Assembly: GCA_902826835.1 (NCBI GenBank)
Contig: CADEGH010000023.1
Span: 6,220-70,219, forward strand
Reading direction: 5' to 3'
Length of the DNA stretch: 64,000 nucleotides
Source: an uncultured bacterium
Lineage (GTDB): Bacteria; Planctomycetota; GCA-002687715
Below are positions 30,406-62,356 of this stretch, piece by piece. Both the position numbers and the translations under genes were made by a program. How positions within the stretch are numbered: position 1 is the stretch's first letter; each line of letters starts with the position of its first letter. Below the pieces are notes generated by a model. The model was not told the DNA's origin. It did no database searches and saw nothing but the letters and a program-made list of their open reading frames with translations.

Positions 30406-30777
30406 ATGCCGACCTTCTCCCTGGCCCCGGATGCGCGTGCCGCGCTCGATCAGATCCGAGAGGCCTCCGACCACGCCGTCGTCATGGTCTTCAAGAAGAG
30501 CCCCACTTGCCCGATCAGCCACGAAGCGGAGGCCGAATGGCGGCGCTTCTTGCGCACCGTCCCCGAACCCACCCTCGTCGCGGAGATCGATGTCATTGCG
30601 GAGCGCGCCTTGGCTCGAGGCTTGGTGGCCGAACTGGGAATCCGCCACGAATCGCCCCAGGTCCTCGTGTTCGCACGGCAGGATCTCACTTGGCACGAAA
30701 GCCACGGCGAAATCACCGAAGGGTCCCTGAGGGGTCATCGGGATCAGGCGGCCCACCGGCTTGCCTCGACGACCTGA
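30406..30777 (+). CDS. YtxJ-like thioredoxin-fold protein (DUF2847; monothiol TCPIS motif)
   Basis: 123 aa; VMVFKKSPTCPISHEA matches the YtxJ family linked to the bacillithiol system in other bacteria. Confidence 0.6.
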   Translation: MPTFSLAPDARAALDQIREASDHAVVMVFKKSPTCPISHEAEAEWRRFLRTVPEPTLVAEIDVIAERALARGLVAELGIRHESPQVLVFARQDLTWHESHGEITEGSLRGHRDQAAHRLASTT

Positions 30778-30803: not shown

Positions 30804-32057
30804 GTGAAGCCGAGTCCCTGGACGATTCCCCTCCGCACTCTCTGGGTGGCCAATCTGGTGGCGGCCACGGGGATGTTCGCGCTCGTGCCTTTCTTGACGT
30901 GTTTTGTGCAGGAGCTCGGGGTCACCGATGCCGCCGCGCGCCACCGCTGGGCGGGTTGGCTCGTCGGCTCGGCCCCCATCATGGCGGCGCTGGTGGGTCC
31001 GCTGTGGGGCGGGATCGGGGACCGATTTGGCCGTCGGGCCATGGTCGCACGCGCTCTGTTCGGTGGTGCGATCTTTGTCGGCCTCATGTGGTGGGCGGAG
31101 TCCCTGTGGTCCATGCTCGGCCTGCGCGCCCTCCAAGGCTGTGTCGCCGGATTCGTCCCCCCGGCACTGGCACTGGCCTCCTTGTTGGCCCCTGAGGAGC
31201 GGCGCGCCTACCTCACCGGAAGCATCCAAAGTGCGGTGTCGGCGGGCGCCGTCCTGGGTTATCTCCTCGGGGGTTACGTGACCGAGCACGGGAGCCTGCG
31301 CATCATCTTTCCCATTTGCGCTGGCCTCTTGGGCTTGGCCGGGATCTTGGTGGTGGCGCTGGTTCCCGAGGTGCGAACCGCGCCCCGCCCGGACGCCCGT
31401 TCATCGTTGGCAGCGCGCATCGTCGACGATTACCGATACACCCTTGGCATTCCGGCGCTGGCTCGGTTCTTGGCGATCCTCGTGGCGGTGCGCCTCGTCG
31501 GCTCGATGATCGACCCACACTTCGTGGCGTTTGTGGAGGGGCTGGGGGGCAGCCGCGACCTCGCCGGTGCAATCTTGGCGCTCGAACAGGGGGCCATCTT
31601 GATCGCAATGCCACGCTTCGCTCGCGCAAGTGAGCGATTCGGCTACCGACGCACCTTCGCCGCGGCGGCGCTCGGGCTCTGCGCACTCTGGTTTGTCCAG
31701 TCGCGCGTCCAGTCGGCTGGCGCGCTGATCGCGGTTCGTATCGCGAGCGGACTCTGCCTCGGCGGAATCGCGCCGGTGGGCTACGGATTGGCGGCTCGTG
31801 AAACGAGCCCCGAGCGCAGGGGCAGCGCGATGGGAACAGTCTTTCAAGCCCTCGCCTTTGCGCATGCCGCCGGCACTCTCATCGGTGGAGCGGTGGTCGG
31901 AGCGATCGGCTTTCGGCCCGTCATGCTGGGAGTGGGGGCGAGCTTCGGGTGCCTAGCGGCGCTCGCGCTGCGCGAGAGCCGCAAAGACCGCGCGCTCCGC
32001 TCCCTGCCGCCACCGAAAGAGGCACCGAGCTGGACCGCCGAAGGAGAAGACGTTTGA
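30804..32057 (+). CDS. MFS transporter
   Basis: 417 aa with 12 predicted TM segments. The GDRFGRR motif between TM2 and TM3 is the MFS signature. Confidence 0.8.
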   Translation: MKPSPWTIPLRTLWVANLVAATGMFALVPFLTCFVQELGVTDAAARHRWAGWLVGSAPIMAALVGPLWGGIGDRFGRRAMVARALFGGAIFVGLMWWAESLWSMLGLRALQGCVAGFVPPALALASLLAPEERRAYLTGSIQSAVSAGAVLGYLLGGYVTEHGSLRIIFPICAGLLGLAGILVVALVPEVRTAPRPDARSSLAARIVDDYRYTLGIPALARFLAILVAVRLVGSMIDPHFVAFVEGLGGSRDLAGAILALEQGAILIAMPRFARASERFGYRRTFAAAALGLCALWFVQSRVQSAGALIAVRIASGLCLGGIAPVGYGLAARETSPERRGSAMGTVFQALAFAHAAGTLIGGAVVGAIGFRPVMLGVGASFGCLAALALRESRKDRALRSLPPPKEAPSWTAEGEDV

Positions 32058-32125: not shown

Positions 32126-32920
32126 TCAGTTCGCCGCTTCGCGCTTCGCGAAAGACTTGAGCTTGAATTTGCTGCCTTCGAGCAGCTTCTTCACGCCGTC
32201 CTCCGTGATCGCATCGGTCTTCGTGCTCTGGTATTCCACTTTGGAGGTATCGCCGAACGGGAGCACGACGATGGTGCCATCGACCTTGGTCAAGATCTCA
32301 CGGATCTTGAAGCAGGTGTCCTGTCACCCAACGCCGTCTACGACGAGGTCGTACACGGCGGCAGCCTTGGGCTTCGTAACTTGGGTGAGGGACTTGAAAC
32401 GCTGAGGCTTGAGCGCCTCGTCGAGCTTCGCGCGATCGGGCGCAGAGCCGTCCTTGGTCGTGATGAAAGCGAACGCGGTGGTGTCTACGGTCACGCTCTG
32501 CATGCCGTCGATCTTGGACAGGGTCTCACGGATCCTGTTGGCGGTTTTCGCCGCGCTTCACCCACCGCCACCGGAGTAAGCGAGGACCCAGAGGGTCTCG
32601 CCCATCGGCGGCTTGACTCCCTCGACCGTGAGGCCGAGCGACTTCAGAGCCGGGGCCACGGAAGCGGCATCGACGCTCTTGCCGTCTTCGACGGTGAGGG
32701 CGATCTTCGACGCGTTGGCATCGAAGGTGGCTTCCTTGACTCCGGGGATACCGAGGGCGGCCTTGACGACCGCATCGGTGGTGACGTCCGCGGTCGACTT
32801 GACGGCGACCTCGAACACGTTTTTCGCTCTCATGATCGGGAGATCGTCACCCGGGCCGCCGACGGCCCCGAAACAGGCCGTAGCCAGCGTGACGATCACC
32901 CCCGCGCTCAACATGCGCAT
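32126..32920 (-). CDS. Candidate secreted selenoprotein with three HMA-like repeats. The reading frame continues through two in-frame TGA codons (32558-32560 and 32324-32326), proposed to encode Sec.
   Basis: One continuous 265-codon frame: ATG at 32920 preceded by GGAGG. It contains a signal peptide (MRMLSAGVIVTLATAC), HMA-like repeat 1 with no Cys or Sec, TGA, repeat 2 (U-SAAKTANRIRETLSKIDG...), TGA, and repeat 3 (U-QDTCFKIREILTKVDG...), then a terminal TGA at 32126-32128. Segments 2 and 3 contain no usable start codon. Both TGAs sit in the beta1-alpha1 loop, where HMA domains carry their CxxC. A SECIS-like hairpin lies 14-20 nt downstream of each TGA. TGA is an ordinary stop elsewhere in the window. 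Confidence 0.5.
32291..32309 (-). promoter_or_regulatory. SECIS-like hairpin 2, 14 nt downstream of the second in-frame UGA
   Basis: mRNA CAAGAUC-CGUGA-GAUCUUG forms a perfect 7-bp stem with a 5-nt loop CGUGA. The stem uses a UUG Leu codon and a CGU Arg codon. Confidence 0.45.
32518..32538 (-). promoter_or_regulatory. SECIS-like hairpin 1, 20 nt downstream of the first in-frame UGA
   Basis: mRNA ACAGGAUCCGUGAGACCCUGU forms stem ACAGG/CCUGU, one A-C mismatch, then UC/GA, closing a 5-nt apical loop CGUGA containing GU. Confidence 0.4.
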
Positions 32921-33285
32921 GGAAGGGTCCTCCAAAGTGGAAAAGGATGCGATGACCTTACCAGGGATCGGCTGAGCCGGGGCCCTGGCTGTCCCCAAGG
33001 ACGCGGCCTTCGCCCCTGTGTAAACACCGGGCGAGCGGAAATCCTTCCGCCGGTCAAGGTTATGGACCGTCCCGGCCGATCTACCTCCCGGAGCTGAAGG
33101 AAAGTCCGAAGGGTCGCAGGGGCCGGGATCCGGATCAATCGGGCGCGTTCGGGTCTTCCCCGTGCGCACACGCGTCCGACGGGCGGCCGGTCGCCGCCAG
33201 GCTTCGGTTGCCCTCCCAGTTCACCCCGGGTTTTCGCCGAGTTCCCTTGCCTCCTCTTGGCATAGTGGGAGAGGACCCCATTTCC

Positions 33286-41190: not shown

Positions 41191-44100
41191 ATGAACTTCG
41201 CCCCTCCCCCTTCCGACTCCCGCCCTGAAACCGCGCCCACTCCCTCGCCCAAAGTCGAGGAGTGGAAACGCCGACTCCTGGACCTTTCGGCCCGCAATCG
41301 TCTCCTGCATTTCCGCACCACGAAGTGCACGATCGAGCTCGGCGAACAACCCCTGGCGGCACTGGCCGCCCGTCTCGAGAAGTCGGAACTGCGATTCGAT
41401 GCACTTCGACCCGAGCGAGAAGACGAAGCCGGGGACGCGCGGCCGCTCGCCCGGGCCGCCGCCATTCAGCGGGGTGTCCTGGAATGCGAACACCCGAAGG
41501 AGGAACTCCCGGAGCGACTCCTCGCGACCTGGCGAGCCGCTCGCACCGAACTCTCGGAGACCGGAACGAGCACTCTGACCTGCATCCTAGGTTTTGTGCG
41601 GTGGGCCGACGAGGATCCGCAGGGGCCAGCTCGCCGAGCCCCGTTGCTCCTCCTGCCCATCGAACTCGAGCGCACGCTCTCCACGCATCGATTCCACATG
41701 CGCTGGCGCGATGCGGACGCACGGCTCAACGAAACCCTGGTGGAGAAACTCCGTCGCGACTTCTCCATCGATCTGAGTTCGGTCAGTGCGTTGCCCGAGA
41801 CCGAAGAGGGCACCCTCGACATTCCCCACTTCTTGGCGCAAGTGCGGACCCAAATCAGCTCTGATCCTCGTCTCTCCCTCGAAGAGACGAGCGCGGTGGG
41901 ATTCCTTTCCTTTTCGCGATTTCTCCTGTGGCACGACCTCGTGGAGCGCGAAGCCACGCTGCTCGACCAGCCTCTCTTGGCGCACCTCGTCCGCGGAACG
42001 CCCCACCCAAGTCTCGAACCCCGCTTCAAGTCGAAGACCTCGTTGCGTCAATCCCGGCCGTGGACGGCCTGGCCACTCGTGCTCGACGCCGACGGCTCCC
42101 AGCTCACCGCCATCGAAGCGGCCCTCTCCGGGCAGAGTTTTGTTCTTCAGGGTCCGCCGGGAACCGGCAAGTCCCAGACCATCACCAACCTGATCGCCGC
42201 CTTCCTCGCGGAGGGCAAGACCGTGCTGTTTGTCGCTGAAAAGCAAGCGGCGCTGCAAGTCGTCGCGGAGCGACTCCGGCGTGTCGGCCTCGGCGACGCC
42301 TGCCTCGAATTGCATTCCACGAAAGCCAGCAAGCGCGAGCTGGCGACCGAACTGGTCCGAGTCTTGGACCTCCCTTTGGTCCAGGACCGACCGAAGCTCA
42401 ACGGGACGCGGGATCTCGACGAGTTGGTCCGTAGCCTCGAAACGAGCGCCGAGGCGTTGCACCAACCGTTCCCCCTCGGAACGAGCGTGTTCGAGTTTGG
42501 CCACGAGGCGAGCCCCGCCGCGGCTTCGCAATTCACCATGGAGTTCGACTCCATCCTCGAAACGACCCGGGACCTCCACGAGCGGCGGCTCGTCGGCCTG
42601 CGCGAGTTGGCAGCGCAAGCGAAGGACCAGGGTGACCTCGCGTTGCATCCGCTCCGGGACTGCCGACGCACGGAGTGGTCACCCCTCATCGAATCCCAGC
42701 TTCGAACCGCTCTCGCGGGGCACCTTGGGGCCCTTCGAGACTGGAGTTCTGCGCACGTGCGAGCTGCGATCCTGCTCGGGATCTCCCCCGAGCGCGCCGC
42801 AGGCGCCACCGATCGGGTGTGCGAGCTTCTGCGCCTCCTGCCCGGTTGCATCCCCACGGAGTTCGCTGACCAGGGCCCGGGCACGATCGATACCCGACTC
42901 GCTCAAGGTCTCGAGGCCTGGCACGAACGCGCTGAAGAACTGGATCGGGTGGGCTGCGCCTTGACCCCGTGGCTTCGCGAGTCGGTTCTCGACTTGGACC
43001 TGAATTCCCTCCTCCGCGAAGCCGAGGGCGCGGCCGAGAAGGCCTTCCCTCTCAAGTGGTGGAAGGAGCGATCACTGTGGAAAGCCCTGGGCAGCGCGCT
43101 CTTGAGCGGAAAGCCGCCCGCGCTCCCTTTGTCCGAACTCCTGCGGCTCGCTCAGCGCTGGCAGTCGCTCCTTCGGGGCCCCAATTCGGCGCTCGCCGCC
43201 GCCCCGAGCGGCCTTGCGGCCACGGTGAGGGAGTCGCTGAACCTCGCCCCGGCGCGAATCCTTGAACTCGCGCAATGGGCCCACCGCTTTGCGGCGGTGG
43301 CGGGACACGGCGGAGCCGTCTCGCTCATTCCGGCGGCGTGGCCAGGCGCCAGTGAAGCCGAGGCCGCGGGCGTTGCCCATGCGCTTGCGGTCGCAAGCGA
43401 GCAAGTCGTTTCGAGTGGACTCCGCATCGCGGACCTCTTGCAGCTCCCCCCTCATCATCCACTGCGTCATCAGCGCGCCCGCGGCGTGGTTCCCGCGGAG
43501 ACCCTCCAGGCCTGGCAGGCTGGTCTGCCTCGCTTGCGGGCGTGGGCACGTTTCATTCAAGCGGAATCCGCACTCCACGGCACGGGGATGGAAAGCCTCC
43601 TCGCCGCCCTTCATTCCGGGAGGGTCGAAGCGGACTCGCTAGTCGCTGCCTACGAAACCGACTTCCGCCGGCAGTGGTTGAGCACCGCCATTGACTCACT
43701 GCCCACTCTGCGGGGATTTCATGGCCCGGAGCACCAGCGCCGACTCTCGGAATTTCGTGAAGGCGATCGGGAGTGGATTGCCGCGGGCGGCGAACAAGTT
43801 TCCCACGCGGTGGCCAAACGGCGGCCGACCGCGAACCATCCGGACTTGCCGCAATCCGAGTTGAAAGTGCTCCGCCACGAAGCCAAGAAAAAGGTCCGTC
43901 ATTGGCCGATTCGCCGGCTCTTGTCCGCGACCACACAGACTTGGCCCCGACTTAAGCCGTGCCTGCTCATGAGCCCGCTCTCGGTCGCCGAGTTCCTACC
44001 GGCCGGAGAATTCCAGGCCGACCTGGTGGTCTTCGACGAAGCAAGCCAGGTGCCCACCCACGTCGCGGTCGGGGCAATCGCGCGCGGCCGGCAAGTCGTG

Positions 44101-45264
44101 ATCGTCGGGGACAGTCAGCAGCTTCCGCCCACGGACTTCTTCGACAAGAAGCTCGACGACGAAGACGAGGTAGCGGAGGAGTCCGGCGTTTTGCCCGACC
44201 TCGAGAGTATTCTCACCACCGCGGAAGCCGAGCTCGTACCGAGCTGGCGACTCCAGTGGCACTACCGAAGCCGCCACGAAGACCTCATCGCGTTCAGCAA
44301 TCGCCACTTCTACGGCGGCGAATTGGTCACCTTCCCGAGCCCCCACTCCGGAGGATCCGACCGCGGGCTGTCGCTGCGGAGGATCGAGGGCGATTATGGC
44401 GGCAGCACCACCCGCACCAATCCGAAGGAGGCCGCGGCGGTGGTGGAGTGGATTGTCGCCACCCTCCGGGATCCGGCGCAGCGGTCGAGGTCGATTGGCG
44501 TCGTCACCTTCAACCAGCCGCAACAGGTCTTGATCGAAGACTTGCTGGACCATGCGCGCGAACAATTCCCGGAAATCGAGCCGGCCTTCGCCCCGACCCA
44601 CTCTCATCCCCTCTTCGTCAAGAACCTCGAAAACGTGCAAGGAGACGAACGGGACATCATGCTCTTCTCCGTGACGTACGGGCCCGACAGCTCCGGGCGG
44701 TTGCGTCAGCATTTTGGCCCCCTCAACAACGAAGGAGGCGAAAAGAGACTCAATGTCGCAATCACGCGGGCTCGCGAACAGTTGATCGTCTTCACTTCGA
44801 TTCCGCCCGGAGCCCTGAATCCCGATCGCATGCAAGCCCGCGGCGCGCGCCTCTTGGCCGAATTTCTCCAATTCGCCGAGTCCGCGGGCGTGGAGCGGTC
44901 CGCCCTCGACCCGCAGGCGTCCCCCGGATCCCACGAGTCCCCCTCACTCGCGAGCCGGATCGCCGATGCTCTGAATAGCCGTGGCTACACCGTGCACTGT
45001 GGTCTGGGCGCGTCCAATCTGCGGATTGACGTGGCGGTGCGTCACCCGCACCAACCGGATCGTTGGATCTTGGGCATTCTGACCGACGCCCCGACCGCCC
45101 TACCCACCGCCAATTTGCGCGACCACGAGCGACTGCGCATCGAGGTCTTGCAGCGCCTCGGCTGGGAATTGCACCAGGCGTGGTCGCCCGACTGGTGGCA
45201 CGACGCCGACGCGGAAATCCGGTGCATCGTGGACAAGCTCGAGTCCTTGACGGCCGCCCCCTGA
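41191..45264 (+). CDS. Large protein combining DUF4011, an SF1 (Upf1/DNA2-like) helicase and a DUF3320 REase-like domain
   Basis: 1357 aa. DUF4011 N-terminus (RLLDLSARNRLLHFRTTK). Walker A FVLQGPPGTGKSQTITNLIA, motif II LVVFDEASQV, VVIVGDSQQLPPT, the motif V/VI block RLNVAITRAREQLIVFTS, and a C-terminal DUF3320-like region. Confidence 0.8.
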   Translation: MNFAPPPSDSRPETAPTPSPKVEEWKRRLLDLSARNRLLHFRTTKCTIELGEQPLAALAARLEKSELRFDALRPEREDEAGDARPLARAAAIQRGVLECEHPKEELPERLLATWRAARTELSETGTSTLTCILGFVRWADEDPQGPARRAPLLLLPIELERTLSTHRFHMRWRDADARLNETLVEKLRRDFSIDLSSVSALPETEEGTLDIPHFLAQVRTQISSDPRLSLEETSAVGFLSFSRFLLWHDLVEREATLLDQPLLAHLVRGTPHPSLEPRFKSKTSLRQSRPWTAWPLVLDADGSQLTAIEAALSGQSFVLQGPPGTGKSQTITNLIAAFLAEGKTVLFVAEKQAALQVVAERLRRVGLGDACLELHSTKASKRELATELVRVLDLPLVQDRPKLNGTRDLDELVRSLETSAEALHQPFPLGTSVFEFGHEASPAAASQFTMEFDSILETTRDLHERRLVGLRELAAQAKDQGDLALHPLRDCRRTEWSPLIESQLRTALAGHLGALRDWSSAHVRAAILLGISPERAAGATDRVCELLRLLPGCIPTEFADQGPGTIDTRLAQGLEAWHERAEELDRVGCALTPWLRESVLDLDLNSLLREAEGAAEKAFPLKWWKERSLWKALGSALLSGKPPALPLSELLRLAQRWQSLLRGPNSALAAAPSGLAATVRESLNLAPARILELAQWAHRFAAVAGHGGAVSLIPAAWPGASEAEAAGVAHALAVASEQVVSSGLRIADLLQLPPHHPLRHQRARGVVPAETLQAWQAGLPRLRAWARFIQAESALHGTGMESLLAALHSGRVEADSLVAAYETDFRRQWLSTAIDSLPTLRGFHGPEHQRRLSEFREGDREWIAAGGEQVSHAVAKRRPTANHPDLPQSELKVLRHEAKKKVRHWPIRRLLSATTQTWPRLKPCLLMSPLSVAEFLPAGEFQADLVVFDEASQVPTHVAVGAIARGRQVVIVGDSQQLPPTDFFDKKLDDEDEVAEESGVLPDLESILTTAEAELVPSWRLQWHYRSRHEDLIAFSNRHFYGGELVTFPSPHSGGSDRGLSLRRIEGDYGGSTTRTNPKEAAAVVEWIVATLRDPAQRSRSIGVVTFNQPQQVLIEDLLDHAREQFPEIEPAFAPTHSHPLFVKNLENVQGDERDIMLFSVTYGPDSSGRLRQHFGPLNNEGGEKRLNVAITRAREQLIVFTSIPPGALNPDRMQARGARLLAEFLQFAESAGVERSALDPQASPGSHESPSLASRIADALNSRGYTVHCGLGASNLRIDVAVRHPHQPDRWILGILTDAPTALPTANLRDHERLRIEVLQRLGWELHQAWSPDWWHDADAEIRCIVDKLESLTAAP

Positions 45265-50356: not shown

Positions 50357-53300
50357 TCAGGTGTCGAACTCGAGGATGAAGGAGACCGCCGTCACCGCCA
50401 TGGACGCATCCTGGAGGATGAAGATGTCGTCGGTGTCGATGCCCACGGGCACCGAGAGCGGCGGGACATCAAGGCGGGCCATGCCACGTTCGTCGAGGAA
50501 TCCGAACCAGGGCGGAGTGGTGTTCAGGATCGCGTAATTGTCGAGCGCATCCGGGCCAAGCCCGACGATGGGTCCGGTGCCTTGGAGGTGGCCCCCGCTG
50601 AAGGTGAACGACCACCGCTCGCCGGCGTGATCGATGCCGGCGTTGATGATCAGGGTGAGGCCTCCACCGAGGCCCGTTCCGTTGAGGCGGACATCCATGC
50701 CGGCGTCGTAGTTGATGGCGCCCGGGACGTCGCTGTTGGCCAGGCCCATGGTCCGAGTCGCCTTCGGGCCGAAGTTGGCGCCCAAGTTGGTGTCCGAGCT
50801 TTGGGCATTGCGGCCGATAGCCCCGTCCCCCGTTCCGGCCCGCGGTGCCGCTCCCTGGAAGCTGTACCAGCTCGACGGAAAGCGCGGGTGGTTATGGGCC
50901 ACCAGGTCGTTGTGCCCGGTCGTTCGCATGCAGTCCATCAAGCGCCCGAAGGAGTCGTAGAGCGCACAATCGTACTCCTCGGTAGTCCAGGGAATGCCCG
51001 GTCCGCCGTTGGCTGCCACGTTGATGTAGGTGACGTTGGCAGGCTTTTCACCGGGAGGCGTCGAGGTGTCGCCGAGCACGATGTAGGCCCGGTTGCCGAT
51101 TCCGGGATTGGGCAGGTTGGCGCCCCAAGGGATCGGGATCCGCGTATGCGTCGAGCCCTGATTCGCGGAAGCCAGAATGTAGTACCCGGATAGATCGATT
51201 TCCCCGATTCCCGACCACGCGATCTCGATGAAATCCGGGCTGTCATCGGTCTCGTTGATGAGGACTCTGATCCCTGGCAACCACGCATCGGTATTGCCCG
51301 AGCCAGAGCAGGCGTTTTCGAGGCCGAAGCTCCTTGGCCCAAACGAGAGCCAGTCCGCCGCGCTGTTCGAGTCCAACCCCCAAGCGCGCTCGGCGTTTCC
51401 GACGATCGAAGTCAGAGTTCCGGCCGCCTCGTTCCTCACCAGGCCCCGGAAGGCACCACCCAGGGATCCCTCGGTGTAGCCGGAGGTCGAGGACGCGACT
51501 CGAACTTCGTCCATCACCACGCCGGAAGCGGAGCGCAGCGCGACTGCGAAGTCACTCGTGGTTGTGCCGATGTTCGGAAGATTGCGCAAAATTTGGCAGT
51601 TGGCCGGTGTCTCCAAGGGGGTCGGCGCCGTCGACTCGAGCACCAAGGCGATCTCGCCCGGCAGAAGGGTCCCGCTCAAGGGCGTCGACACGAGGGTCGA
51701 TCCGTCTTTCCACACCACGGTCCAGCCCGAGAGCGAGGCCGTGGTCGTACCGAAGTTCGCGATCTCGATCCCGTCCGGGTTCCCGGAGGAGACCTCCGTG
51801 ATCAGGACTCGGCCCAGAGCCGGAGGAATCCGCGCCGCAAACACGTCGTAGTCGCCAGCATTGGGACAGGGATAGTCGGAGAGGGGGACGCCGACCAAGA
51901 AGCGGGACTGAGTGTCCCCGTTGGTGTCGCCTACAAACGCCAGAGTCCAGCCGAAGGAGGTGCCGATCGGGGGAGCCCCGAAGACCTGATAGCGCCGCTC
52001 TTTGTGGAGCACCTCGCCAGTGCGCCCCGATCGAACGTGGACGTAGCCGGGACCGGTGACTCCGGTCGCGCTGTTCCCGAACTGGATCGCGCCGACTCCG
52101 AAGTCGCCAGCGCCGTCACCATCGACATCGCCGGCGTCGCAGAGGGACCAGCCGTAACTGTCTCCGACGGCCTCACCGACGTAGGTCGCGAGAGTCGTGT
52201 ATCCGAGGGTGAAAATCGGCGTCGTATTTCCGGCGCCGGAGTAGATCCGGACGTAGCCCGTGCCACCTTCACTCGGGGTCAAACCACCCCCGTCCGAGGC
52301 GCCCGCCACGATGTTGGCCTTCACTCCGTTCGCGGAAATCGAGGCAATCATCGCCACGGAGCGACCGAGGTTGTCGGCGATTCCGTCTCCGTCACGCGTG
52401 GCCACAAGGGTGCCCGAAGCCCCCGAGTAGACGAAGATGCGGCCGCAGTTCGAACCCCCGGTGCCGTCGAAGCCCGACGACCCGATCACGTAGTCCGGCA
52501 CGCCGTCCGTCCCGAGATCGCGCCCGCCGGCCAGCCCTTCACCGAAGCTGTCGAAGAAGTTCGTGCCGTTGTGGGTGCGGATCAGGCCGCCGTTCACCGA
52601 CCAGAGTTCCACCCGCCCGGTGCCAGTGTTGTACGCCTGGGCGCCCACCAGGAACTCGGTGTCGCCGTCACCATCGATGTCCCCCACGCGGGCGAACGAC
52701 TCGCCGAAGCCGCCAAACGCGGTGCCGTAGTTGACGGTCGCGATCGAGACGCCGGTCTGGCCGTTCAGGATCTGCCATCGACCCGCGAAATTGTTGTACC
52801 CGGGGCTGCCAACGACGACGTCCTCGCGGCCATCGCCGGTGACGTCGCCGAGGCTCGCGGTCGCCGCCCCGAATCCGTAGTCGGCGCCGGCGCCTTCGAC
52901 GCTCCAGATCACCGCGCCGGTGTAGCCGGAAATGAGGCGCAGCCGTCCGCGGGCGTTGGAGCCGTAGCCCGGCTCCCCCACGACAAAGTCGGCGTAGCCA
53001 TCACCGTTGATGTCCCCGACGCCCGCGACACCGCTCCCGATTTCATTGTCCTGTGTGGAGCAGGGGGGGTAGGTGATGTTGAAGCTCACGCTGGCGGGAG
53101 CCCGGAAGCCCGCGACCACGTCGTTCTCGATCAGGATGCTGTGGAGGCCGACCGACTGAAGCAGGTTCGACGGCACCCAGGCCCGAACCGTCGTGGGGTT
53201 GATGAATTGGGTCTCGAGCGGGCTGAAATCCCAGAGCACCCGAGTTCCCAGGACCCCGTCTCCGTCGAGGGATCCCTCGAAAAATCGTGTGCCCGAAACT

Positions 53301-54136
53301 TCGACCCAGATCCCTCCACTTCCGGCCGTCACCGAGTTCGGCGAAACCGAGGTGCAGGTCGGCTGCCGTGCGCTGCCGTAGCGTGAGGCCATGGCCTGGG
53401 CATCCAGCACCGTAAGGTGACTGCGATTCCCCATGACGTTTTGGAACTGCGTAAACCCCGGGCGCGCCTGGATTGTGGGGATCGCCGAATTCACCGCAAA
53501 CGCGGTGTCGTTGTAGTGCATGATCGATTCGAAGTCGTACGCCCCGGTGGGAGTCGCCGTGAGCGACTTGGCGAAGTTGTTGTCGCAGGGGTTTCCGTTG
53601 CAAGCGGTCTGCGAGATGTTGCCAAAATTGATCGAGACATAAGTGTCGCGATCCGGGCGGGACTGCTCATGAAGAAAGCCCAGCGCATGGTAGAGCTCGT
53701 GCACCAAAATGTACTTGTCGTCCCAGTGATTGGCTCCCACGCCGAGGTCCTGGACTCCCCCATCCATGCCGACCGCGGAGTAACTCACCGAGTTCGAGGC
53801 CGTGTTTTGGATGATCTGGATCCGGTTCGGTGCGACCGAACTCTCGAAGAAATCGACGTTCGCGATGGACTCGATCTCCCAAAACGCCTTGCGGAAGAGG
53901 TCTCGCCGCGTGGCCGAGATGTTGGCGGCAAATTCGTAGAAAACGTTGCCAGCGGGCCAGGCGGTAGCCGTCCACACTCCTTCCCCGAAGATCGCCTCCG
54001 GCGGGAGGACCATGTCGTCCACCACGATCCGGTCAGGGCGGGGAGCGGGTACGGGGGACTGGCCGGGGGCCAGGGCGCAAGCGAAGAGACAAAGCGCGGG
54101 GAGCGCGTAGCGGCCAACAGAGGCGAGGGAGAGCAT
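50357..54136 (-). CDS. Giant secreted astacin-like (M12A) metalloprotease with FG-GAP beta-propeller repeats, two lamin-tail domains and a conserved C-terminal domain
   Basis: 1259 aa. Signal MLSLASVGRYALPALCLFACALAPGQS. Astacin zinc site HELYHALGFLHEQSRPDRD with a Met-turn SIMHY. Multiple FG-GAP repeats; LTD-like RVLITEVSSGNPDGIEIANF...SGWTVVW and RVLINETDDSPDFIEIAWSG. Confidence 0.8.
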   Translation of the reverse strand: MLSLASVGRYALPALCLFACALAPGQSPVPAPRPDRIVVDDMVLPPEAIFGEGVWTATAWPAGNVFYEFAANISATRRDLFRKAFWEIESIANVDFFESSVAPNRIQIIQNTASNSVSYSAVGMDGGVQDLGVGANHWDDKYILVHELYHALGFLHEQSRPDRDTYVSINFGNISQTACNGNPCDNNFAKSLTATPTGAYDFESIMHYNDTAFAVNSAIPTIQARPGFTQFQNVMGNRSHLTVLDAQAMASRYGSARQPTCTSVSPNSVTAGSGGIWVEVSGTRFFEGSLDGDGVLGTRVLWDFSPLETQFINPTTVRAWVPSNLLQSVGLHSILIENDVVAGFRAPASVSFNITYPPCSTQDNEIGSGVAGVGDINGDGYADFVVGEPGYGSNARGRLRLISGYTGAVIWSVEGAGADYGFGAATASLGDVTGDGREDVVVGSPGYNNFAGRWQILNGQTGVSIATVNYGTAFGGFGESFARVGDIDGDGDTEFLVGAQAYNTGTGRVELWSVNGGLIRTHNGTNFFDSFGEGLAGGRDLGTDGVPDYVIGSSGFDGTGGSNCGRIFVYSGASGTLVATRDGDGIADNLGRSVAMIASISANGVKANIVAGASDGGGLTPSEGGTGYVRIYSGAGNTTPIFTLGYTTLATYVGEAVGDSYGWSLCDAGDVDGDGAGDFGVGAIQFGNSATGVTGPGYVHVRSGRTGEVLHKERRYQVFGAPPIGTSFGWTLAFVGDTNGDTQSRFLVGVPLSDYPCPNAGDYDVFAARIPPALGRVLITEVSSGNPDGIEIANFGTTTASLSGWTVVWKDGSTLVSTPLSGTLLPGEIALVLESTAPTPLETPANCQILRNLPNIGTTTSDFAVALRSASGVVMDEVRVASSTSGYTEGSLGGAFRGLVRNEAAGTLTSIVGNAERAWGLDSNSAADWLSFGPRSFGLENACSGSGNTDAWLPGIRVLINETDDSPDFIEIAWSGIGEIDLSGYYILASANQGSTHTRIPIPWGANLPNPGIGNRAYIVLGDTSTPPGEKPANVTYINVAANGGPGIPWTTEEYDCALYDSFGRLMDCMRTTGHNDLVAHNHPRFPSSWYSFQGAAPRAGTGDGAIGRNAQSSDTNLGANFGPKATRTMGLANSDVPGAINYDAGMDVRLNGTGLGGGLTLIINAGIDHAGERWSFTFSGGHLQGTGPIVGLGPDALDNYAILNTTPPWFGFLDERGMARLDVPPLSVPVGIDTDDIFILQDASMAVTAVSFILEFDT

Positions 54137-55931: not shown

Positions 55932-58490
55932 TCACTCGCCCCGCGCGCCGAGAAGCGGCTGAAGACGCGATTTCCATTCGGGACTGATGCCCTCTCCCAA
56001 TCCGTCGAGGGCCTCTCGCGCCGCCGCTCGGGCCTCGCGCTTCTCCCCTACCACTCCAGAAATCACGGCAAACTCGGCGAGGAGTTCCGCGTCTTTCCGC
56101 TCTGTTTCCGCGACCGCGCGCCTCATCCAAGCGTAGGCCGTAAGCTGCTCAGAGGCGCCCGCCGAAGGGGAATCGAGGAGCTGGCGCGCCAGTTTGACAC
56201 GGCGGTGGGGGGTCGTAGGCGCGGCCTCCGCCTCGGCAACCACGGCGTCGAGGCCTGCCCGCCGCTCGAGCTCGGTGTCCTCGTCGGCTTCAGCCGCCCT
56301 CTGGAGACGCTGGTAGGCGGTGAGGACATCGTCCACATGCCCATCCCCCCCTGGCGTCGCGCGTGCGGCATCCGCTTGGAAGCGCGCTGACATATGCCAC
56401 GCCACGATCGCGCCGGGCAAATCCCGCTCCGCCGAAGCCAGATAGGCGCGGAATCGCCAGACATCTGCCAGTCGATCCTGGGCCAGGACACTCTCCGGAT
56501 GCGCCGACGCATAGCTTTCGGCGTGCCGCAGAGCTTGATCGAGCGCCGCCCGAGCCGGCCCCGGGCGTTTTTCATTGACCTCGATCTGGCCGAGCTTCAA
56601 CCAGATCAAGCCGAGGTCGAACTGATCGAAGGCCTGCACACTCGGGTGATTGAGCATTTCCTGCCGCAGGTCTCGACAGAGTTCCATCCGCTCCCGGGCC
56701 CGATTCGCGTCCCCGGTGCGCGCGAGCCCGTCCCCCTCCTGCTCGAGTAGGAGACAGACGAGCCTTCGGGCCCAAGGGTCCTCCTTCAGGCTTAGGAGAA
56801 CCTTGCGTTCCTCGTCCAAGTTTTCGATATGCGTCAACACCGAAGCGAAGTCACCGCGTTGCCATTCCATCTGCATTTCGCAGAGTTCGATGGCCACCGC
56901 CTCACAGACGAGGGAAGTGACCTTCGGCCACTTCTGACGAGCGCCTTCGATCAGAGATCGCGCCTCGGCGAGGGTCGAGCGCGCCGCTGCAGAGTCCTGA
57001 CGTCCTTGCTTTTGAGGAGAACTCTGGGTCTGTGCCTTCTCTCGCAGTGCCGCCGAAACCTCGATGACCAGCGCGGGTTCCGGTTCGGCCGATCTTTCCA
57101 CGGCGCGCAGGGTGGCCAGAGTTTGATCGGCCAATCGACCGCGGTAATCCGCCGCTGCCGGCAGATAACGAAGTTCCTGGCTCAGCGAGGCGGCTAGTGC
57201 GCGCACCACTTCCCGAATCTGAACGAGGCGGGCCCGATCCTGTTCCTGTGCCAACGACAATCGTTGTGTCGCCTCGTTCGCAGTACGCAGAAGCAGCAAG
57301 CTGACAACCAAGCCGGTGACCAAGCTCAGGAGCGCGACCGCGAGGCTGGCGGATACGACGGGGTGCCGCCGCGTGAGTCGGAGCGTGCGGTAGAGAGGCC
57401 CCGCAGGCCGGGCGTGAACGGGTTCGCCGCGCCTCGCACGTCCCAAGTCCTCGGCGAAGGCCTGGGCACTCTGGTATCGGCGGTCCCGATCCTTCTCGAG
57501 CGCCGTGAGGACGATGGCGCGCAGGTCTCGATCCACCCCTGGATCGACACTGCGAGGATCGATGGGGTCCTTGGTCATGATCGCGCGGTAGGTTTCCGCC
57601 CGCGAGGGTGCGTCGAACGGTCGGGATTTCGTGAGGACCTCGTAGAGAGTCACCCCGAGCGCCCAGACATCGACGCGGGGATCGAGCGGAATGCGGCTGC
57701 CCGAGATTTGTTCGGGTGCGAGATAGGAAGGCGTCCCGAGGATGTCGCCGGTGAGGGTCAAGTGGCGCTGGTCCTGGTCGATCTCCTGGGCGAGGCCAAA
57801 ATCCAAAATCATCGGACGCTCACCCGGGGTGAGCATCAGGTTGCCCGGCTTGATGTCGCGATGGAGCACGCCCACGCCATGCGTGGCGTGCAACGCCGCC
57901 GCGGCTTCCTCAAAGTACGCGAGTAGCCGGTCGCGACTCGAAAAGGGCGCCCACATGGGCTTGCCGAATCCCCGCTCTTTCGGCAGACGCTTGGCGAGCG
58001 TCTCGCCCGCGATCAGGGGCATGGCCACGTAGGAAAGGCCGTCCGCCTGCCCGACATCGTGCACGCCGCAAATCGCCGGGTGCTCGACCTTCGAGGCCGC
58101 CATCGCCTCCCGCCGAAACCGCGCGAGAGCGGCGTGGCTCTCGAGGCCGGGCAAGCTGCGGAGGACTTTGAGGGCGACACGTCGGCCCAAACGGGTGTCT
58201 TCCGCCAGATAAACGACCGCTTGACCGCCTCGACCGATTTCCTCGAGCACCGTGTACGGCCCGAGTTCGCGAGGACCGAAATCCGCCGTAGCCGCCTTGG
58301 CTTCCACCGTGGTCTTGGGTGGCTCGCCTTTCTCAATCAACCGGTACTCACGGAGCACGGTGTCGCTGTGGTCGGGCCACAGGGCGATGTACTCCTCCAC
58401 CGAGACCACCTTGCCGGCTTCGCGATCCTTGAGGTAGCGCTCCATGAAGGCGAGCGCGACCCATTCGTCGGTGGGAGCGGCATTCAGCAT
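55932..58490 (-). CDS. Membrane-anchored Ser/Thr protein kinase with a large C-terminal domain (paralog of the kinase at 21354..23885)
   Basis: Hanks kinase motifs: glycine loop GRGGQAVVYLA, catalytic loop HRDIKPGNLML, DFG, and the APE-type motif GTPSYLAPE. TM helix VVSASLAVALLSLVTGLVVSLLLL precedes a C-terminal helical domain of about 480 aa. The stop abuts the convergent ECF sigma stop. Confidence 0.85.
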   Translation of the reverse strand: MLNAAPTDEWVALAFMERYLKDREAGKVVSVEEYIALWPDHSDTVLREYRLIEKGEPPKTTVEAKAATADFGPRELGPYTVLEEIGRGGQAVVYLAEDTRLGRRVALKVLRSLPGLESHAALARFRREAMAASKVEHPAICGVHDVGQADGLSYVAMPLIAGETLAKRLPKERGFGKPMWAPFSSRDRLLAYFEEAAAALHATHGVGVLHRDIKPGNLMLTPGERPMILDFGLAQEIDQDQRHLTLTGDILGTPSYLAPEQISGSRIPLDPRVDVWALGVTLYEVLTKSRPFDAPSRAETYRAIMTKDPIDPRSVDPGVDRDLRAIVLTALEKDRDRRYQSAQAFAEDLGRARRGEPVHARPAGPLYRTLRLTRRHPVVSASLAVALLSLVTGLVVSLLLLRTANEATQRLSLAQEQDRARLVQIREVVRALAASLSQELRYLPAAADYRGRLADQTLATLRAVERSAEPEPALVIEVSAALREKAQTQSSPQKQGRQDSAAARSTLAEARSLIEGARQKWPKVTSLVCEAVAIELCEMQMEWQRGDFASVLTHIENLDEERKVLLSLKEDPWARRLVCLLLEQEGDGLARTGDANRARERMELCRDLRQEMLNHPSVQAFDQFDLGLIWLKLGQIEVNEKRPGPARAALDQALRHAESYASAHPESVLAQDRLADVWRFRAYLASAERDLPGAIVAWHMSARFQADAARATPGGDGHVDDVLTAYQRLQRAAEADEDTELERRAGLDAVVAEAEAAPTTPHRRVKLARQLLDSPSAGASEQLTAYAWMRRAVAETERKDAELLAEFAVISGVVGEKREARAAAREALDGLGEGISPEWKSRLQPLLGARGE

Positions 58491-62266: not shown

Positions 62267-62356
62267 GAAGGTGTCTCCGAGAGGCCCCACAGGTAGGTCG
62301 CCTCTGCCCCCTCGGTTGACGCCCGCGGCCGGATCTGACCAAAAAAATCCTGAGAA

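What the first reader, a model, noticed from the sequence alone, without database searches (positions are those of the whole stretch)
32126..32920. Candidate secreted selenoprotein: three HMA-like repeats with two in-frame UGA (Sec) codons at equivalent loop positions
Seen directly: one 265-codon minus-strand frame begins at a good SD plus ATG (32920) with a signal peptide and runs to a terminal TGA (32126-32128). It crosses two internal TGAs (32558-32560 and 32324-32326). Segments 2 and 3 contain no usable start codon, so they cannot be separate genes. All three segments have a beta-alpha-beta-beta-alpha-beta pattern typical of heavy-metal-associated (CopZ/MerP-like) domains. Repeat 1 has no Cys or Sec in its beta1-alpha1 loop, so it is degenerate. 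Both TGAs fall in that same loop, where HMA domains carry their metal-binding CxxC: ...YSGGGG-U-SAAKTANRIRETL... and ...VDGVG-U-QDTC-FKIREIL... (a UxxxC in repeat 3). Two independent nonsense mutations at homologous positions of two repeats are very unlikely, and TGA is an ordinary stop elsewhere in the window. A periplasmic or secreted multi-Sec HMA-type protein is not a selenoprotein family I recognise. Sec binds Hg, Cu and Ag more tightly than Cys, which suggests a metal-scavenging or chaperone role (inference).
Basis: partly seen in the sequence, partly recalled or inferred. Interest (0 to 1): 0.85.

Follow-up and report, generated by a model that had tools for sequence, protein, structure and literature searches.

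The report
Secreted two-selenocysteine HMA metal-binding protein
This is very probably a real gene for a secreted protein from Planctomycetota bacteria, built from copper/mercury-chaperone-like (HMA) domains, in which two UGA "stop" codons are read as selenocysteine at the metal-binding loops; the family is small and is absent from the protein-family libraries and the literature I searched.

Summary
One minus-strand frame (32920..32126) keeps GC3 at 0.83-0.85 across in-frame TGAs at 32560-32558 and 32326-32324, while TGA terminates 10 of the 12 longest genes in the window.

Both TGAs recur at the same positions in every relative found. The relatives form seven lineages, 30-83% identical, from metagenomes and three Planctomycetota MAGs. 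No member has Cys or any other sense codon at either site, and one member ends in TAG while both internal codons stay TGA.

Segments downstream of the TGAs are under strong purifying selection (dN/dS 0.06-0.10). Each of the 15 TGA sites is followed by a hairpin with a CGUGN loop, 27 nt (site 1) or 21 nt (site 2) after the UGA. These hairpins fit the published bacterial SECIS model and show compensatory changes and selected rare codons.

The domains are HMA-like (profile vs CopA HMA E = 1e-7; Foldseek to CopZ and MerP). The repeat-3 Sec aligns with Cys1 of GMTCxxC.

No NCBIfam or Pfam selenoprotein model matches. Not shown here: Sec machinery in the host genome, and which metal, if any, is bound.

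Verdict: a genuine double selenoprotein, and a new variant of the known HMA-type selenoproteins.

The parts
32126..32920 (-). Complete read-through coding sequence: 264 residues including Sec121 and Sec199, plus the terminal TGA at 32126-32128.
   Evidence: One frame with GC3 of 0.83-0.85 throughout. Orthologues are colinear over the whole length.
32929..32933 (-). Shine-Dalgarno-like GGAGG, 8 nt upstream of the ATG at 32920.
   Evidence: Read directly from the sequence.
32861..32920 (-). N-terminal signal peptide (about residues 1-20, MRMLSAGVIVTLATACFGAV). The LATAC motif is lipobox-like, so the protein may be a lipoprotein.
   Evidence: By inspection: a charged N-terminus followed by a hydrophobic stretch occurs in all members. 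No predictor was run, so the cleavage site is inferred.
32606..32824 (-). Repeat 1: an HMA-fold domain with no Cys or Sec. Present only in the three-domain members.
   Evidence: AF2 gives beta-alpha-beta-beta-alpha-beta over residues 35-103 with pLDDT 70-85. Foldseek top hits are CopZ, MerP, Atx1 and ZiaA, with TM up to 0.79. The domain is absent from L006, L007 and L008.
32363..32602 (-). Repeat 2: HMA domain A, carrying Sec121 in the motif (V/L)WxxxY-S-G-G-G-G-U.
   Evidence: The profile of Sec-bearing domains hits the CopA HMA domain at E = 1e-7, NmerA at 2e-4 and ZntA at 3e-4. The motif is invariant across the family.
32558..32560 (-). UGA-1, the codon for Sec121.
   Evidence: It is TGA in all 8 sequenced loci. 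The called proteins P0002, P0004, P0005 and P0006 all end exactly at this position.
32519..32537 (-). SECIS-1 hairpin CAGGAUC-CGUGA-GACCCUG. The loop (32526-32530) starts 27 nt after the UGA. One A.C mismatch makes this the weakest hairpin in the family.
   Evidence: Folding results (-6.4 kcal/mol for the core, -12.8 for UGA..+48). Conserved with covariation in the orthologues.
32129..32362 (-). Repeat 3: HMA domain B, carrying Sec199 (D-G-V-G-U-Q-D-T-C) and the conserved KFKLKS tail.
   Evidence: This Sec aligns with Cys1 of GMTCxxC in the HMM alignment.
32324..32326 (-). UGA-2, the codon for Sec199.
   Evidence: It is TGA in all 7 loci that extend this far. On the P0004 contig (no DNA available), a second stop lies 78 codons after the first, in the same frame.
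32290..32310 (-). SECIS-2 hairpin UCAAGAUC-CGUGA-GAUCUUGA. The loop (32298-32302) starts 21 nt after the UGA.
   Evidence: Folding results (-8.9 kcal/mol for the core). Compensatory changes appear in L004, L006, L007 and L037.

Best explanation
The gene encodes a secreted tandem-HMA selenoprotein of a planctomycete. It is periplasmic and possibly lipid-anchored.

During translation, SelB with Sec-tRNA(Sec) recognises a small hairpin with a CGUGN apical loop. The hairpin is encoded by the conserved K-(V/I)-R-x-x-(L/F) stretch of helix alpha1, 27 nt after the first UGA and 21 nt after the second. Selenocysteine is inserted at both UGAs. Each Sec lies in the beta1-alpha1 loop of an HMA domain, the loop that carries the metal-binding GMTCxxC in CopZ, MerP and Atx1.

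The two selenolates, one per domain, are the only conserved soft ligands in the mature protein. They most likely act together, either binding a thiophilic metal ion such as Cu(I), Hg(II) or Ag(I) between the two domains, or cycling as an inter-domain diselenide. The N-terminal third domain has no ligand and is dispensable: two-domain orthologues lack it.

Shown here: the gene is real, translation continues through both UGAs under selection, SECIS-like hairpins are conserved, and the domains are HMA-like. Inferred: that the inserted residue is Sec rather than another amino acid, that the protein is exported, and that it binds metal. My confidence is about 0.9 for Sec recoding and about 0.5 for a metal-binding or chaperone role.
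For: 1. The coding signal is continuous. GC3 is 0.83-0.85 in all three segments and falls outside the frame.

2. TGA is the normal terminator in this genome.

3. Both TGAs are conserved in every relative: L009 (83% identical), L004, L005 and L037 (about 40-50%), and L006, L007 and L008 in Planctomycetota MAGs (about 35-40%). Called protein fragments in four clusters end exactly at Y[S/L]GGG[G/S]. L037 terminates with TAG but keeps TGA at both internal sites.

4. dN/dS downstream of the TGAs is low: 0.085 and 0.092 for window vs L009, and 0.059 and 0.099 for L007 vs L008. Segment 1 gives about 0.17.

5. All 15 sites have a hairpin with a CGUG[A/C/G] loop at fixed spacing. Stems are 6-9 bp, the hairpin cores are -6.4 to -12.3 kcal/mol, and the UGA..+48 regions are -12.3 to -18.7 kcal/mol. 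This meets the loop, stem and spacing criteria of the bSECIS model: 3-9 nt loop, G in loop positions 1-2 followed by G or U, 4-16 bp stem, 16-37 nt spacing (PMC13188914). Its MFE criterion (<= -7.5 kcal/mol) is met by every UGA..+48 region. For the hairpin core alone it is missed at four site-1 hairpins (window -6.4, L037 -6.7, L007 and L008 -7.0).

6. Covariation supports the stem: 88.4% of cells are paired, against 21-51% in slid registers; 14 cells carry double compensatory changes; 0 of 500 shuffles reach the covariation score.

7. Codon choice supports RNA-level selection. Arg is CGU at every site, although CGU is 10.7% of Arg codons in window genes. Leu is mostly UUG (16.4% of Leu codons). 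Synonymous resampling gives P of 0.016-0.12 at 10 of 11 sites, combined about 5e-6.

8. HMA homology and fold: profile vs PDB HMA domains at E = 1e-7, 5 of 7 members hit Pfam HMA with a best E of 2.1e-10, and Foldseek matches repeat 1 to CopZ and MerP.

9. Complete Sec-insertion gene sets are reported for the planctomycetes Isosphaera pallida and Gemmata obscuriglobus (PMC4807772).
Against: No selA, selB, selD or tRNA-Sec lies in the 64-kb window or in any fetched locus. The rest of the host genome could not be read.

No Cys-containing orthologue exists to give the classical Sec/Cys pairing.

The window's own SECIS-1 has an A.C mismatch and is not better than synonymous resampling (P = 0.69). 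Whole-region folding z-scores are unremarkable (-0.08 to -1.1).

Part of the hairpin follows from the conserved peptide itself. Rfam has no matching SECIS family.

A single Sec per domain without a conserved partner Cys is atypical for HMA metal sites. There is no metal-resistance or conserved operon context in any lineage.

Confidence: 0.82

Rival explanations
1. Decaying pseudogene: an ancestral three-HMA gene with Cys codons acquired two nonsense mutations (TGY to TGA).
For: There are two in-frame stops. Gene callers split the locus into 120 + 59 + 55 aa. No Sec machinery is seen in the window.
Against: Both TGAs are conserved in seven lineages down to about 30% identity, with no frameshifts or other stops. 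dN/dS is 0.06-0.10 downstream of the stops. No TGY version exists anywhere. Hairpins with compensatory changes follow each TGA.
Confidence: 0.01
2. Three separate small cistrons: translation stops at each TGA, and the downstream pieces start at internal ATG/TTG/GTG codons. AAGG...UUG inside the hairpin could act as a Shine-Dalgarno site plus start codon.
For: In-frame ATG (32503) and TTG (32293) exist. In several orthologues a UUG 13 codons after UGA-1 is preceded by an AAGG-like motif.
Against: The candidate starts are not conserved in position or identity. The window's site 1 has CUG there, and site 2 in L004, L007 and L037 has UUC or CUC. The residues between each TGA and those starts are conserved as protein (A-x-x-x-A-x-K-V-R-E-T-L). 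Each HMA domain would lose beta1, or beta1 plus half of alpha1. The putative Shine-Dalgarno site and start codon would be base-paired to each other within the stem.
Confidence: 0.03
3. UGA is recoded to a standard amino acid (Trp, Cys or Gly by near-cognate or suppressor tRNA read-through stimulated by the hairpin), not to selenocysteine.
For: The identity of the inserted residue is not shown by sequence. Sec machinery is unverified for these genomes.
Against: The hairpin fits the SelB-type bSECIS model in loop sequence (G-U at loop positions 2-3), size and spacing. The codon sits at or next to the Cys1 position of an HMA metal site, where Sec is the chemically sensible substitute. If Cys, Trp or Gly were wanted, a sense codon should have replaced TGA in at least one of seven lineages. 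Planctomycetes with full Sec machinery are documented.
Confidence: 0.06
4. It is a genuine double selenoprotein, but its role is redox (an inter-domain diselenide or selenenylsulfide oxidoreductase, or selenium or chalcogen carrier) rather than metal binding.
For: Most bacterial selenoproteins are redox proteins (PMC13188914). There is only one Sec per domain, the partner Cys is not conserved, and there is no metal-resistance operon context. A BrxC-type bacilliredoxin gene lies nearby in the window.
Against: The fold and best homologues are metal-binding HMA domains, with Sec in the metal-binding loop. Other HMA-type selenoproteins are annotated as metal-binding. The BrxC neighbour is not conserved outside the window's species.
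Confidence: 0.3

Closest known systems
MerP / CopZ / Atx1-type HMA metallochaperones and the N-terminal HMA domains of P1B ATPases (Pfam PF00403)
   Same: Same beta-alpha-beta-beta-alpha-beta fold. There is detectable sequence homology: profile E = 1e-7 to CopA HMA, and Pfam HMA down to 2.1e-10 in family members. The reactive residue sits in the beta1-alpha1 loop. Like MerP, the protein has a signal peptide. Like CopA, it has HMA domains in tandem.
   Different: GMTCxxC is replaced by Y-S-G-G-G-G-U in domain A and G-x-x-U-x-D-[TS]-[CS] in domain B. There is one Sec per domain and no conserved second ligand. No mer or cop operon context is present. The window copy scores below Pfam's gathering threshold (20.8 vs 24.8 bits).
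NF041115 'UxxU' metal-binding (seleno)protein, NF045683 MerT/CopZ fusion-like selenoprotein, NF045648 MbdU, and the GOS 'MerP' selenoprotein
   Same: These are also HMA-like or metal-binding proteins in which Sec replaces metal-ligand Cys, some with two Sec residues.
   Different: In those families both Sec/Cys ligands lie in one motif (UxxU, UxxC, CU). Here the two Sec residues are in two separate duplicated domains, each with its own SECIS. No family member approaches any of their HMM cut-offs (best E = 0.001, about 12 bits against cut-offs of 95-375).
Bacterial SECIS elements (E. coli fdhF type; bSECIS consensus of Zhang and Gladyshev as summarised in PMC13188914)
   Same: An in-frame hairpin lies directly downstream of the UGA, with a small apical loop carrying G-U at positions 2-3, a 6-9 bp stem and 21-27 nt spacing.
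   Different: The sequence is unrelated to fdhF, there is no Rfam match, and no bulged U is evident. The element is duplicated within one gene together with the protein domain.

Membership tests
Bacterial selenoprotein gene (UGA-Sec + bSECIS) | An in-frame UGA is conserved among orthologues, with homologous coding sequence continuing downstream under purifying selection. | tested here: met
   TGA is present at all 15 sites in 8 loci. dN/dS is 0.06-0.10 downstream.
Bacterial selenoprotein gene (UGA-Sec + bSECIS) | A stem-loop downstream of the UGA fits the bSECIS model: 3-9 nt loop with G in positions 1-2, 4-16 bp stem, 16-37 nt spacing, MFE <= -7.5 kcal/mol. | tested here: met
   The loop is CGUGN, stems are 6-9 bp, spacing is 27 and 21 nt, and region MFE is -12.3 to -18.7 kcal/mol. 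Covariation supports the stem. The window's site-1 core hairpin alone is -6.4 kcal/mol.
Bacterial selenoprotein gene (UGA-Sec + bSECIS) | The Sec position aligns with Cys in homologues. | tested here: inconclusive
   No Cys-form orthologue exists. Against distant HMA domains, the repeat-3 Sec aligns with Cys1 of GMTCxxC, while the repeat-2 Sec falls two residues upstream in the same loop.
Bacterial selenoprotein gene (UGA-Sec + bSECIS) | The host genome encodes selA, selB, selD and tRNA-Sec. | not testable with these tools
   None of these is in the window or the fetched loci, and the window could not be extended. Literature reports full gene sets in the planctomycetes I. pallida and G. obscuriglobus (PMC4807772).
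Bacterial selenoprotein gene (UGA-Sec + bSECIS) | Selenium is demonstrably incorporated into the protein. | not testable with these tools
   This needs 75Se labelling or mass spectrometry.
HMA domain (Pfam PF00403) | A beta-alpha-beta-beta-alpha-beta ferredoxin-like fold that superposes on HMA structures. | tested here: met
   For repeat 1, the AF2 model gives Foldseek matches to CopZ 6ff2 (TM 0.79, rmsd 2.4 A), MerP and Atx1. The Sec-bearing domains could not be modelled and are supported by sequence profile only.
HMA domain (Pfam PF00403) | The sequence matches the HMA profile above Pfam's gathering score. | tested here: inconclusive
   The window protein scores 20.8 bits against a 24.8-bit cut-off. 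Five of seven family members match, with a best E of 2.1e-10. The family profile hits PDB HMA domains at E = 1e-7.
HMA domain (Pfam PF00403) | A GMTCxxC (CxxC) metal-binding motif in the beta1-alpha1 loop. | tested here: not met
   It is replaced by GGGG-U-(S/G)A(A/P) and G-x-x-U-x-D-[TS]-[CS]. A second ligand is not conserved.
NF041115 UxxU metal-binding selenoprotein / NF045683 MerT-CopZ selenoprotein / NF045648 MbdU | The sequence scores above the NCBIfam curated cut-off and carries the family motif (UxxU, or CU). | tested here: not met
   Best scores are about 12 bits against cut-offs of 95 and 375. NF045648 is not hit at all. The motifs are absent.
MerP (TIGR02052) | A periplasmic single HMA domain with CxxC, encoded in a mer operon, scoring above 92.55 bits. 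| tested here: not met
   The score is 12 bits. No merR, merT or merA neighbours occur in any locus.

The most novel reading that the evidence does not exclude
This is an obligate selenoprotein family with no Cys form anywhere. Two single-Sec HMA domains, produced by duplicating a domain together with its embedded SECIS, cooperate to form an inter-domain bis-selenolate site (or a diselenide). That would make it a selenium-dependent periplasmic metallochaperone or scavenger specific to Planctomycetota, and a type of HMA metal site not described before.
Probability: 0.35. Interest if true: 0.7.

Novelty: new variant of a known kind. Interest (0 to 1): 0.6.

Why it matters
This family would add a selenoprotein family that current annotation misses entirely. 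Every database entry for it is a truncated 110-127-aa fragment, and NCBIfam and Pfam have no model for it.

It is unusual in three ways. It has two Sec residues in separate duplicated domains, each with its own SECIS. It has no Cys-containing orthologue. And each domain offers only a single selenolate in a fold that normally uses CxxC.

It gives a clean natural case for asking what selenium provides to a metal-binding site rather than a redox site. It also shows a SECIS element being duplicated together with a protein domain, and it extends the known selenoproteome of Planctomycetota.

Practically, a family HMM and the CGUGN hairpin signature would let annotation pipelines rescue these genes.

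Tried and rejected
- The word-indexed homology search with the full U-to-C protein found nothing. It missed even the identical fragment that is in the collection, which is a tool-sensitivity issue.
I used segment 1 instead for the exhaustive search and the first structure job.
- The first metagenome scan with a peptide pattern found no relatives. A DNA pattern that also admitted TGY at the Sec codon gave 36 hits, of which only one (L037, with TGA) was real. All the Cys-codon hits were unrelated.
- Rfam gave no SECIS match, in either gathering or E-value mode.
- Whole-region folding z-scores were not significant. The evidence for the hairpins comes from comparison between loci, not from thermodynamics.
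- AF2 on segment 2 alone was uninformative (pLDDT 58).
- The promoter and terminator consensus scan found nothing.
- Two attempts to extend the window through exact-protein look-ups of terminal genes failed, as did one earlier look-up of a neighbouring gene.
- I looked for a conserved gene neighbourhood and found none. Neighbours outside the window (GspE-type ATPase and PhoD-like gene in L006, M28 peptidase and transglutaminase-like gene in L007/L008) were identified by eye from motifs, not by a search.
- A TGA reassignment (genetic code 4 or 25) was rejected because TGA terminates most long genes.
- The + strand ORF at 32381-33097 was rejected as a GC-rich shadow ORF.
- P0003 was a spurious repeat-protein hit.
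Full report
OBSERVATION

The minus-strand frame 32920..32126 is exactly as described. A GGAGG lies 8 nt before the ATG. The N-terminus is hydrophobic. There are 265 codons, with in-frame TGA at codons 121 (32560-32558) and 199 (32326-32324) and a terminal TGA.

The window is 64.4% G+C. Third-position GC in this frame is 0.84, 0.83 and 0.85 for the three segments, and the signal disappears immediately upstream of the ATG and downstream of the last TGA. The coding signal therefore does not stop at either internal TGA.

TGA terminates 10 of the 12 longest confident genes in the window, so a TGA reassignment is excluded. A scan of all six frames for stops flanked on both sides by coding-like sequence found only these two clean cases; the rest is antisense noise.

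The 238-aa ORF on the opposite strand (32381-33097) is an R/G/D-rich shadow ORF.

The TGAs are not sequencing errors. Four independent assemblies carry them with 0-3 substitutions across the gene (L001, L002, L003 from Logan, L010 from NCBI GCA_020050275.1).

REPEATS AND FOLD

The three repeats are homologous to each other. Pairwise BLAST gives E = 4e-5 for r1-r2 and for r2-r3.

AlphaFold on segment 1 alone gives beta-alpha-beta-beta-alpha-beta for residues 35-103 at pLDDT 70-85. Foldseek places this model on CopZ (6ff2, TM 0.79, rmsd 2.4 A), on MerP, Atx1 and CCS domain 1, and on the HMA domains of ZiaA and ZntA.

A profile of the eleven Sec-bearing domains (U written as C) hits only HMA domains at the top of the PDB list: CopA at 1e-7, NmerA at 2e-4, ZntA at 3e-4, then CopZ and MerP. 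Five of seven family members hit Pfam HMA individually, with a best E of 2.1e-10. The window copy itself is just below the gathering score at 20.8 vs 24.8 bits.

In the HMM alignment the repeat-3 Sec falls on Cys1 of GMTCxxC. The repeat-2 Sec lies in the same loop, two residues earlier, inside a longer Gly-rich insertion (Y-S-G-G-G-G-U). Gap placement there is arbitrary.

Repeat 1 has no Cys or Sec. In the relatives it reads G-L-T-A where HMA has G-M-T-C.

RELATIVES

An exhaustive phmmer search of 1.84 billion representatives with segment 1 found only four real clusters. All are short proteins (112-127 aa) that end exactly at the residue before the first TGA, with the motif Y-[S/L]-G-G-G-G.

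A profile search of 5.8 billion clusters added one more, P0006, and again returned only such N-terminal fragments. No full-length Cys-containing homologue appeared.

DNA was recovered for L004, L005, L009 and L010, for three Planctomycetota MAGs through a genome scan (L006 Isosphaeraceae, L007 HyVt-576, L008 Planctomycetia), and for L037 through a DNA pattern scan of metagenomes.

In every locus the frame reads through TGA at the position of Sec121, and in every locus long enough, at the position of Sec199. Homologous protein sequence continues on both sides and the conserved KFKLKS-type tail is present. That makes 15 TGA sites in 8 loci, spanning 30-83% protein identity.

L037 ends with TAG while both internal codons are TGA.

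For P0004 no DNA was available. Its contig shows the same split, with the second stop 78 codons after the first in the same frame.

All TGY matches were unrelated sequences.

The MAG versions lack repeat 1. In them a signal peptide is followed directly by the two Sec-bearing domains, so the Sec domains are the conserved core.

The Cys four residues after Sec199 (UQDTC) is kept in L009 and L006 but is Ser in L004, L037, L007 and L008.

SELECTION

Nei-Gojobori estimates were made segment by segment.
- Window vs L009: dN/dS of 0.175, 0.085 and 0.092 for segments 1, 2 and 3.
- L007 vs L008: dN/dS of 0.17, 0.059 and 0.099.

The parts downstream of the stops are therefore translated and are more constrained than the part upstream. 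Together with the conservation of both TGAs, this excludes a pseudogene.

It also argues against three independent cistrons. In-frame ATG, TTG and GTG codons do exist after each TGA, and gene callers used them. But they are not conserved, the residues between each TGA and those codons are conserved as protein, and each HMA domain straddles its TGA.

SECIS

Every TGA is followed by a hairpin whose apical loop is CGUGA, CGUGC or CGUGG. The loop starts 27 nt after UGA-1 and 21 nt after UGA-2. Stems are 6-9 bp. Core energies are -6.4 to -12.3 kcal/mol, and the UGA..+48 regions are -12.3 to -18.7 kcal/mol.

These values satisfy the loop, stem and spacing criteria of the published bSECIS model: 3-9 nt loop, G in the first two loop positions followed by G or U, 4-16 bp stem, 16-37 nt spacing (PMC13188914). 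The model's MFE criterion (<= -7.5 kcal/mol) is met by every UGA..+48 region. Taken on the hairpin core alone, it is missed at four site-1 hairpins.

On a loop-anchored alignment of the 14 distinct hairpins, 88.4% of cells pair, against 21-51% when the 3' arm is slid by 1-3 nt. Five of eight pairs show changes on both sides (14 cells). None of 500 shuffles reaches the observed covariation score or the paired fraction (for the first 11 sites).

Some compensation is achieved through synonymous codons, for example R-to-K (AGG to AAG) together with CUG to UUG.

The Arg codon in the loop is CGU at all sites, although CGU is only 10.7% of Arg codons in the window's genes. Leu in the 3' arm is mostly UUG, which is 16.4% of Leu codons.

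Resampling synonymous codons for each site's own peptide gives P of 0.016-0.12 for forming as long a stem at 10 of 11 sites, combined about 5e-6. The sites are not fully independent.

The exception is the window's own site 1, which has an A.C mismatch (P = 0.69) and is the weakest element in the family.

The Sec-less repeat 1 has no such CGUG hairpin. Rfam has no matching family. Simple folding z-scores are unremarkable, so the case rests on comparison between loci.

WHAT COULD NOT BE SHOWN

No selA, selB, selD or tRNA-Sec lies in the window or in any fetched locus. The window could not be extended.

The literature reports complete Sec-insertion gene sets in the planctomycetes Isosphaera pallida and Gemmata obscuriglobus, and in two Porphyra-associated planctomycetes (PMC4807772). 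The trait therefore exists in this phylum and in the family of L006.

The relative geometry of the two Sec loops is therefore unknown.

Gene neighbourhoods differ between lineages, so context gives no functional hint. The window has CapK-like/DUF362 genes on one side and MFS plus BrxC on the other. L006 has a GspE-type ATPase and a PhoD-like gene. L007 and L008 have an M28 peptidase and a transglutaminase-like gene. The L006-L008 neighbours were identified by eye from motifs, not by a search.

MECHANISM

The step from shown to inferred is as follows.

Shown: a real gene, translated through two conserved UGAs, each followed by a conserved SelB-type hairpin. The domains are HMA-like, with the recoded residue in the metal-binding loop.

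Inferred: the residue is Sec (about 0.9). The protein is exported; a signal peptide is seen by inspection in all members, and several have a lipobox-like [AT][ST]AC or LAGC. The two selenolates are the only conserved soft ligands in the mature protein, and they either bind a thiophilic metal between the two domains or form a diselenide. I put metal binding at about 0.5 and a redox role at about 0.3.

COMPARISON WITH KNOWN FAMILIES

HMA-type and metal-related selenoproteins are already catalogued. They include NF041115 (UxxU), NF045683 (MerT/CopZ fusion), MbdU (NF045648, CU motif), a UxxC cation ATPase and a GOS 'MerP' selenoprotein.

No member of the present family approaches any NCBIfam cut-off. 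The best hit is a generic CopZ model at 7e-6, and the selenoprotein models reach only E >= 0.001.

The architecture also differs. Here there is one Sec per domain in two duplicated domains, each with its own SECIS, a Gly-rich GGGG-U loop, no conserved partner Cys, and no Cys-form orthologues.

No description was found in the searchable literature.

I therefore file it as a new variant of a known kind: a genuine, previously unannotated double selenoprotein family of Planctomycetota.

Noticed in passing
window 30406-30777 (+) and 30804-32057 (+): A BrxC/YtxJ-type monothiol bacilliredoxin gene (PF11009) lies directly upstream of an MFS transporter gene, convergent with the selenoprotein gene. The same arrangement occurs in L001 and L010 (same species) but not in the MAG loci.
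   Followed up: partly
window 50357-54136 (-) and 58556-62290 (-): Two paralogous proteins of about 1250 aa combine astacin (M12A) peptidase, FG-GAP repeats and a lamin-tail domain. They are separated by a Ser/Thr kinase gene (55932-58490).
   Followed up: no
window 41191-45264 (+): A 1357-aa protein carries DUF4011, AAA_11/AAA_12 helicase and MTES_1575 endonuclease domains. This is a helicase-nuclease architecture and could be defence-related.
   Followed up: no
L006 9995-10582, L007 5950-6513, L008 5729-6292: The Planctomycetota MAG orthologues are two-domain forms that lack the Sec-less N-terminal repeat. The family therefore exists in 2- and 3-HMA architectures, and the ligand-less domain is an accessory.
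   Followed up: yes
L037 (Ga0075175_1033747), minus strand: This family member uses TAG as its true terminator while both internal codons remain TGA.
   Followed up: yes
window 32327-32557 vs 32561-32920 (compared with L009): The synonymous rate is lower in segment 2 (dS 0.31) than in segment 1 (dS 0.73). This is consistent with extra RNA-level constraint around the SECIS elements, but the numbers are small.
   Followed up: partly
window 32381-33097 (+): A 238-aa ORF antisense to the selenoprotein gene is a GC-rich shadow ORF (R/G/D-rich), not a gene. Many such shadow ORFs occur throughout this window.
   Followed up: yes
window 32126-32920, database behaviour: Public gene calls split this gene into 120 + 59 + 55 aa. 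The two-domain orthologues have N-terminal fragments too short to be called at all, so the family is nearly invisible in protein databases. The first word-indexed search missed even the identical fragment.
   Followed up: yes
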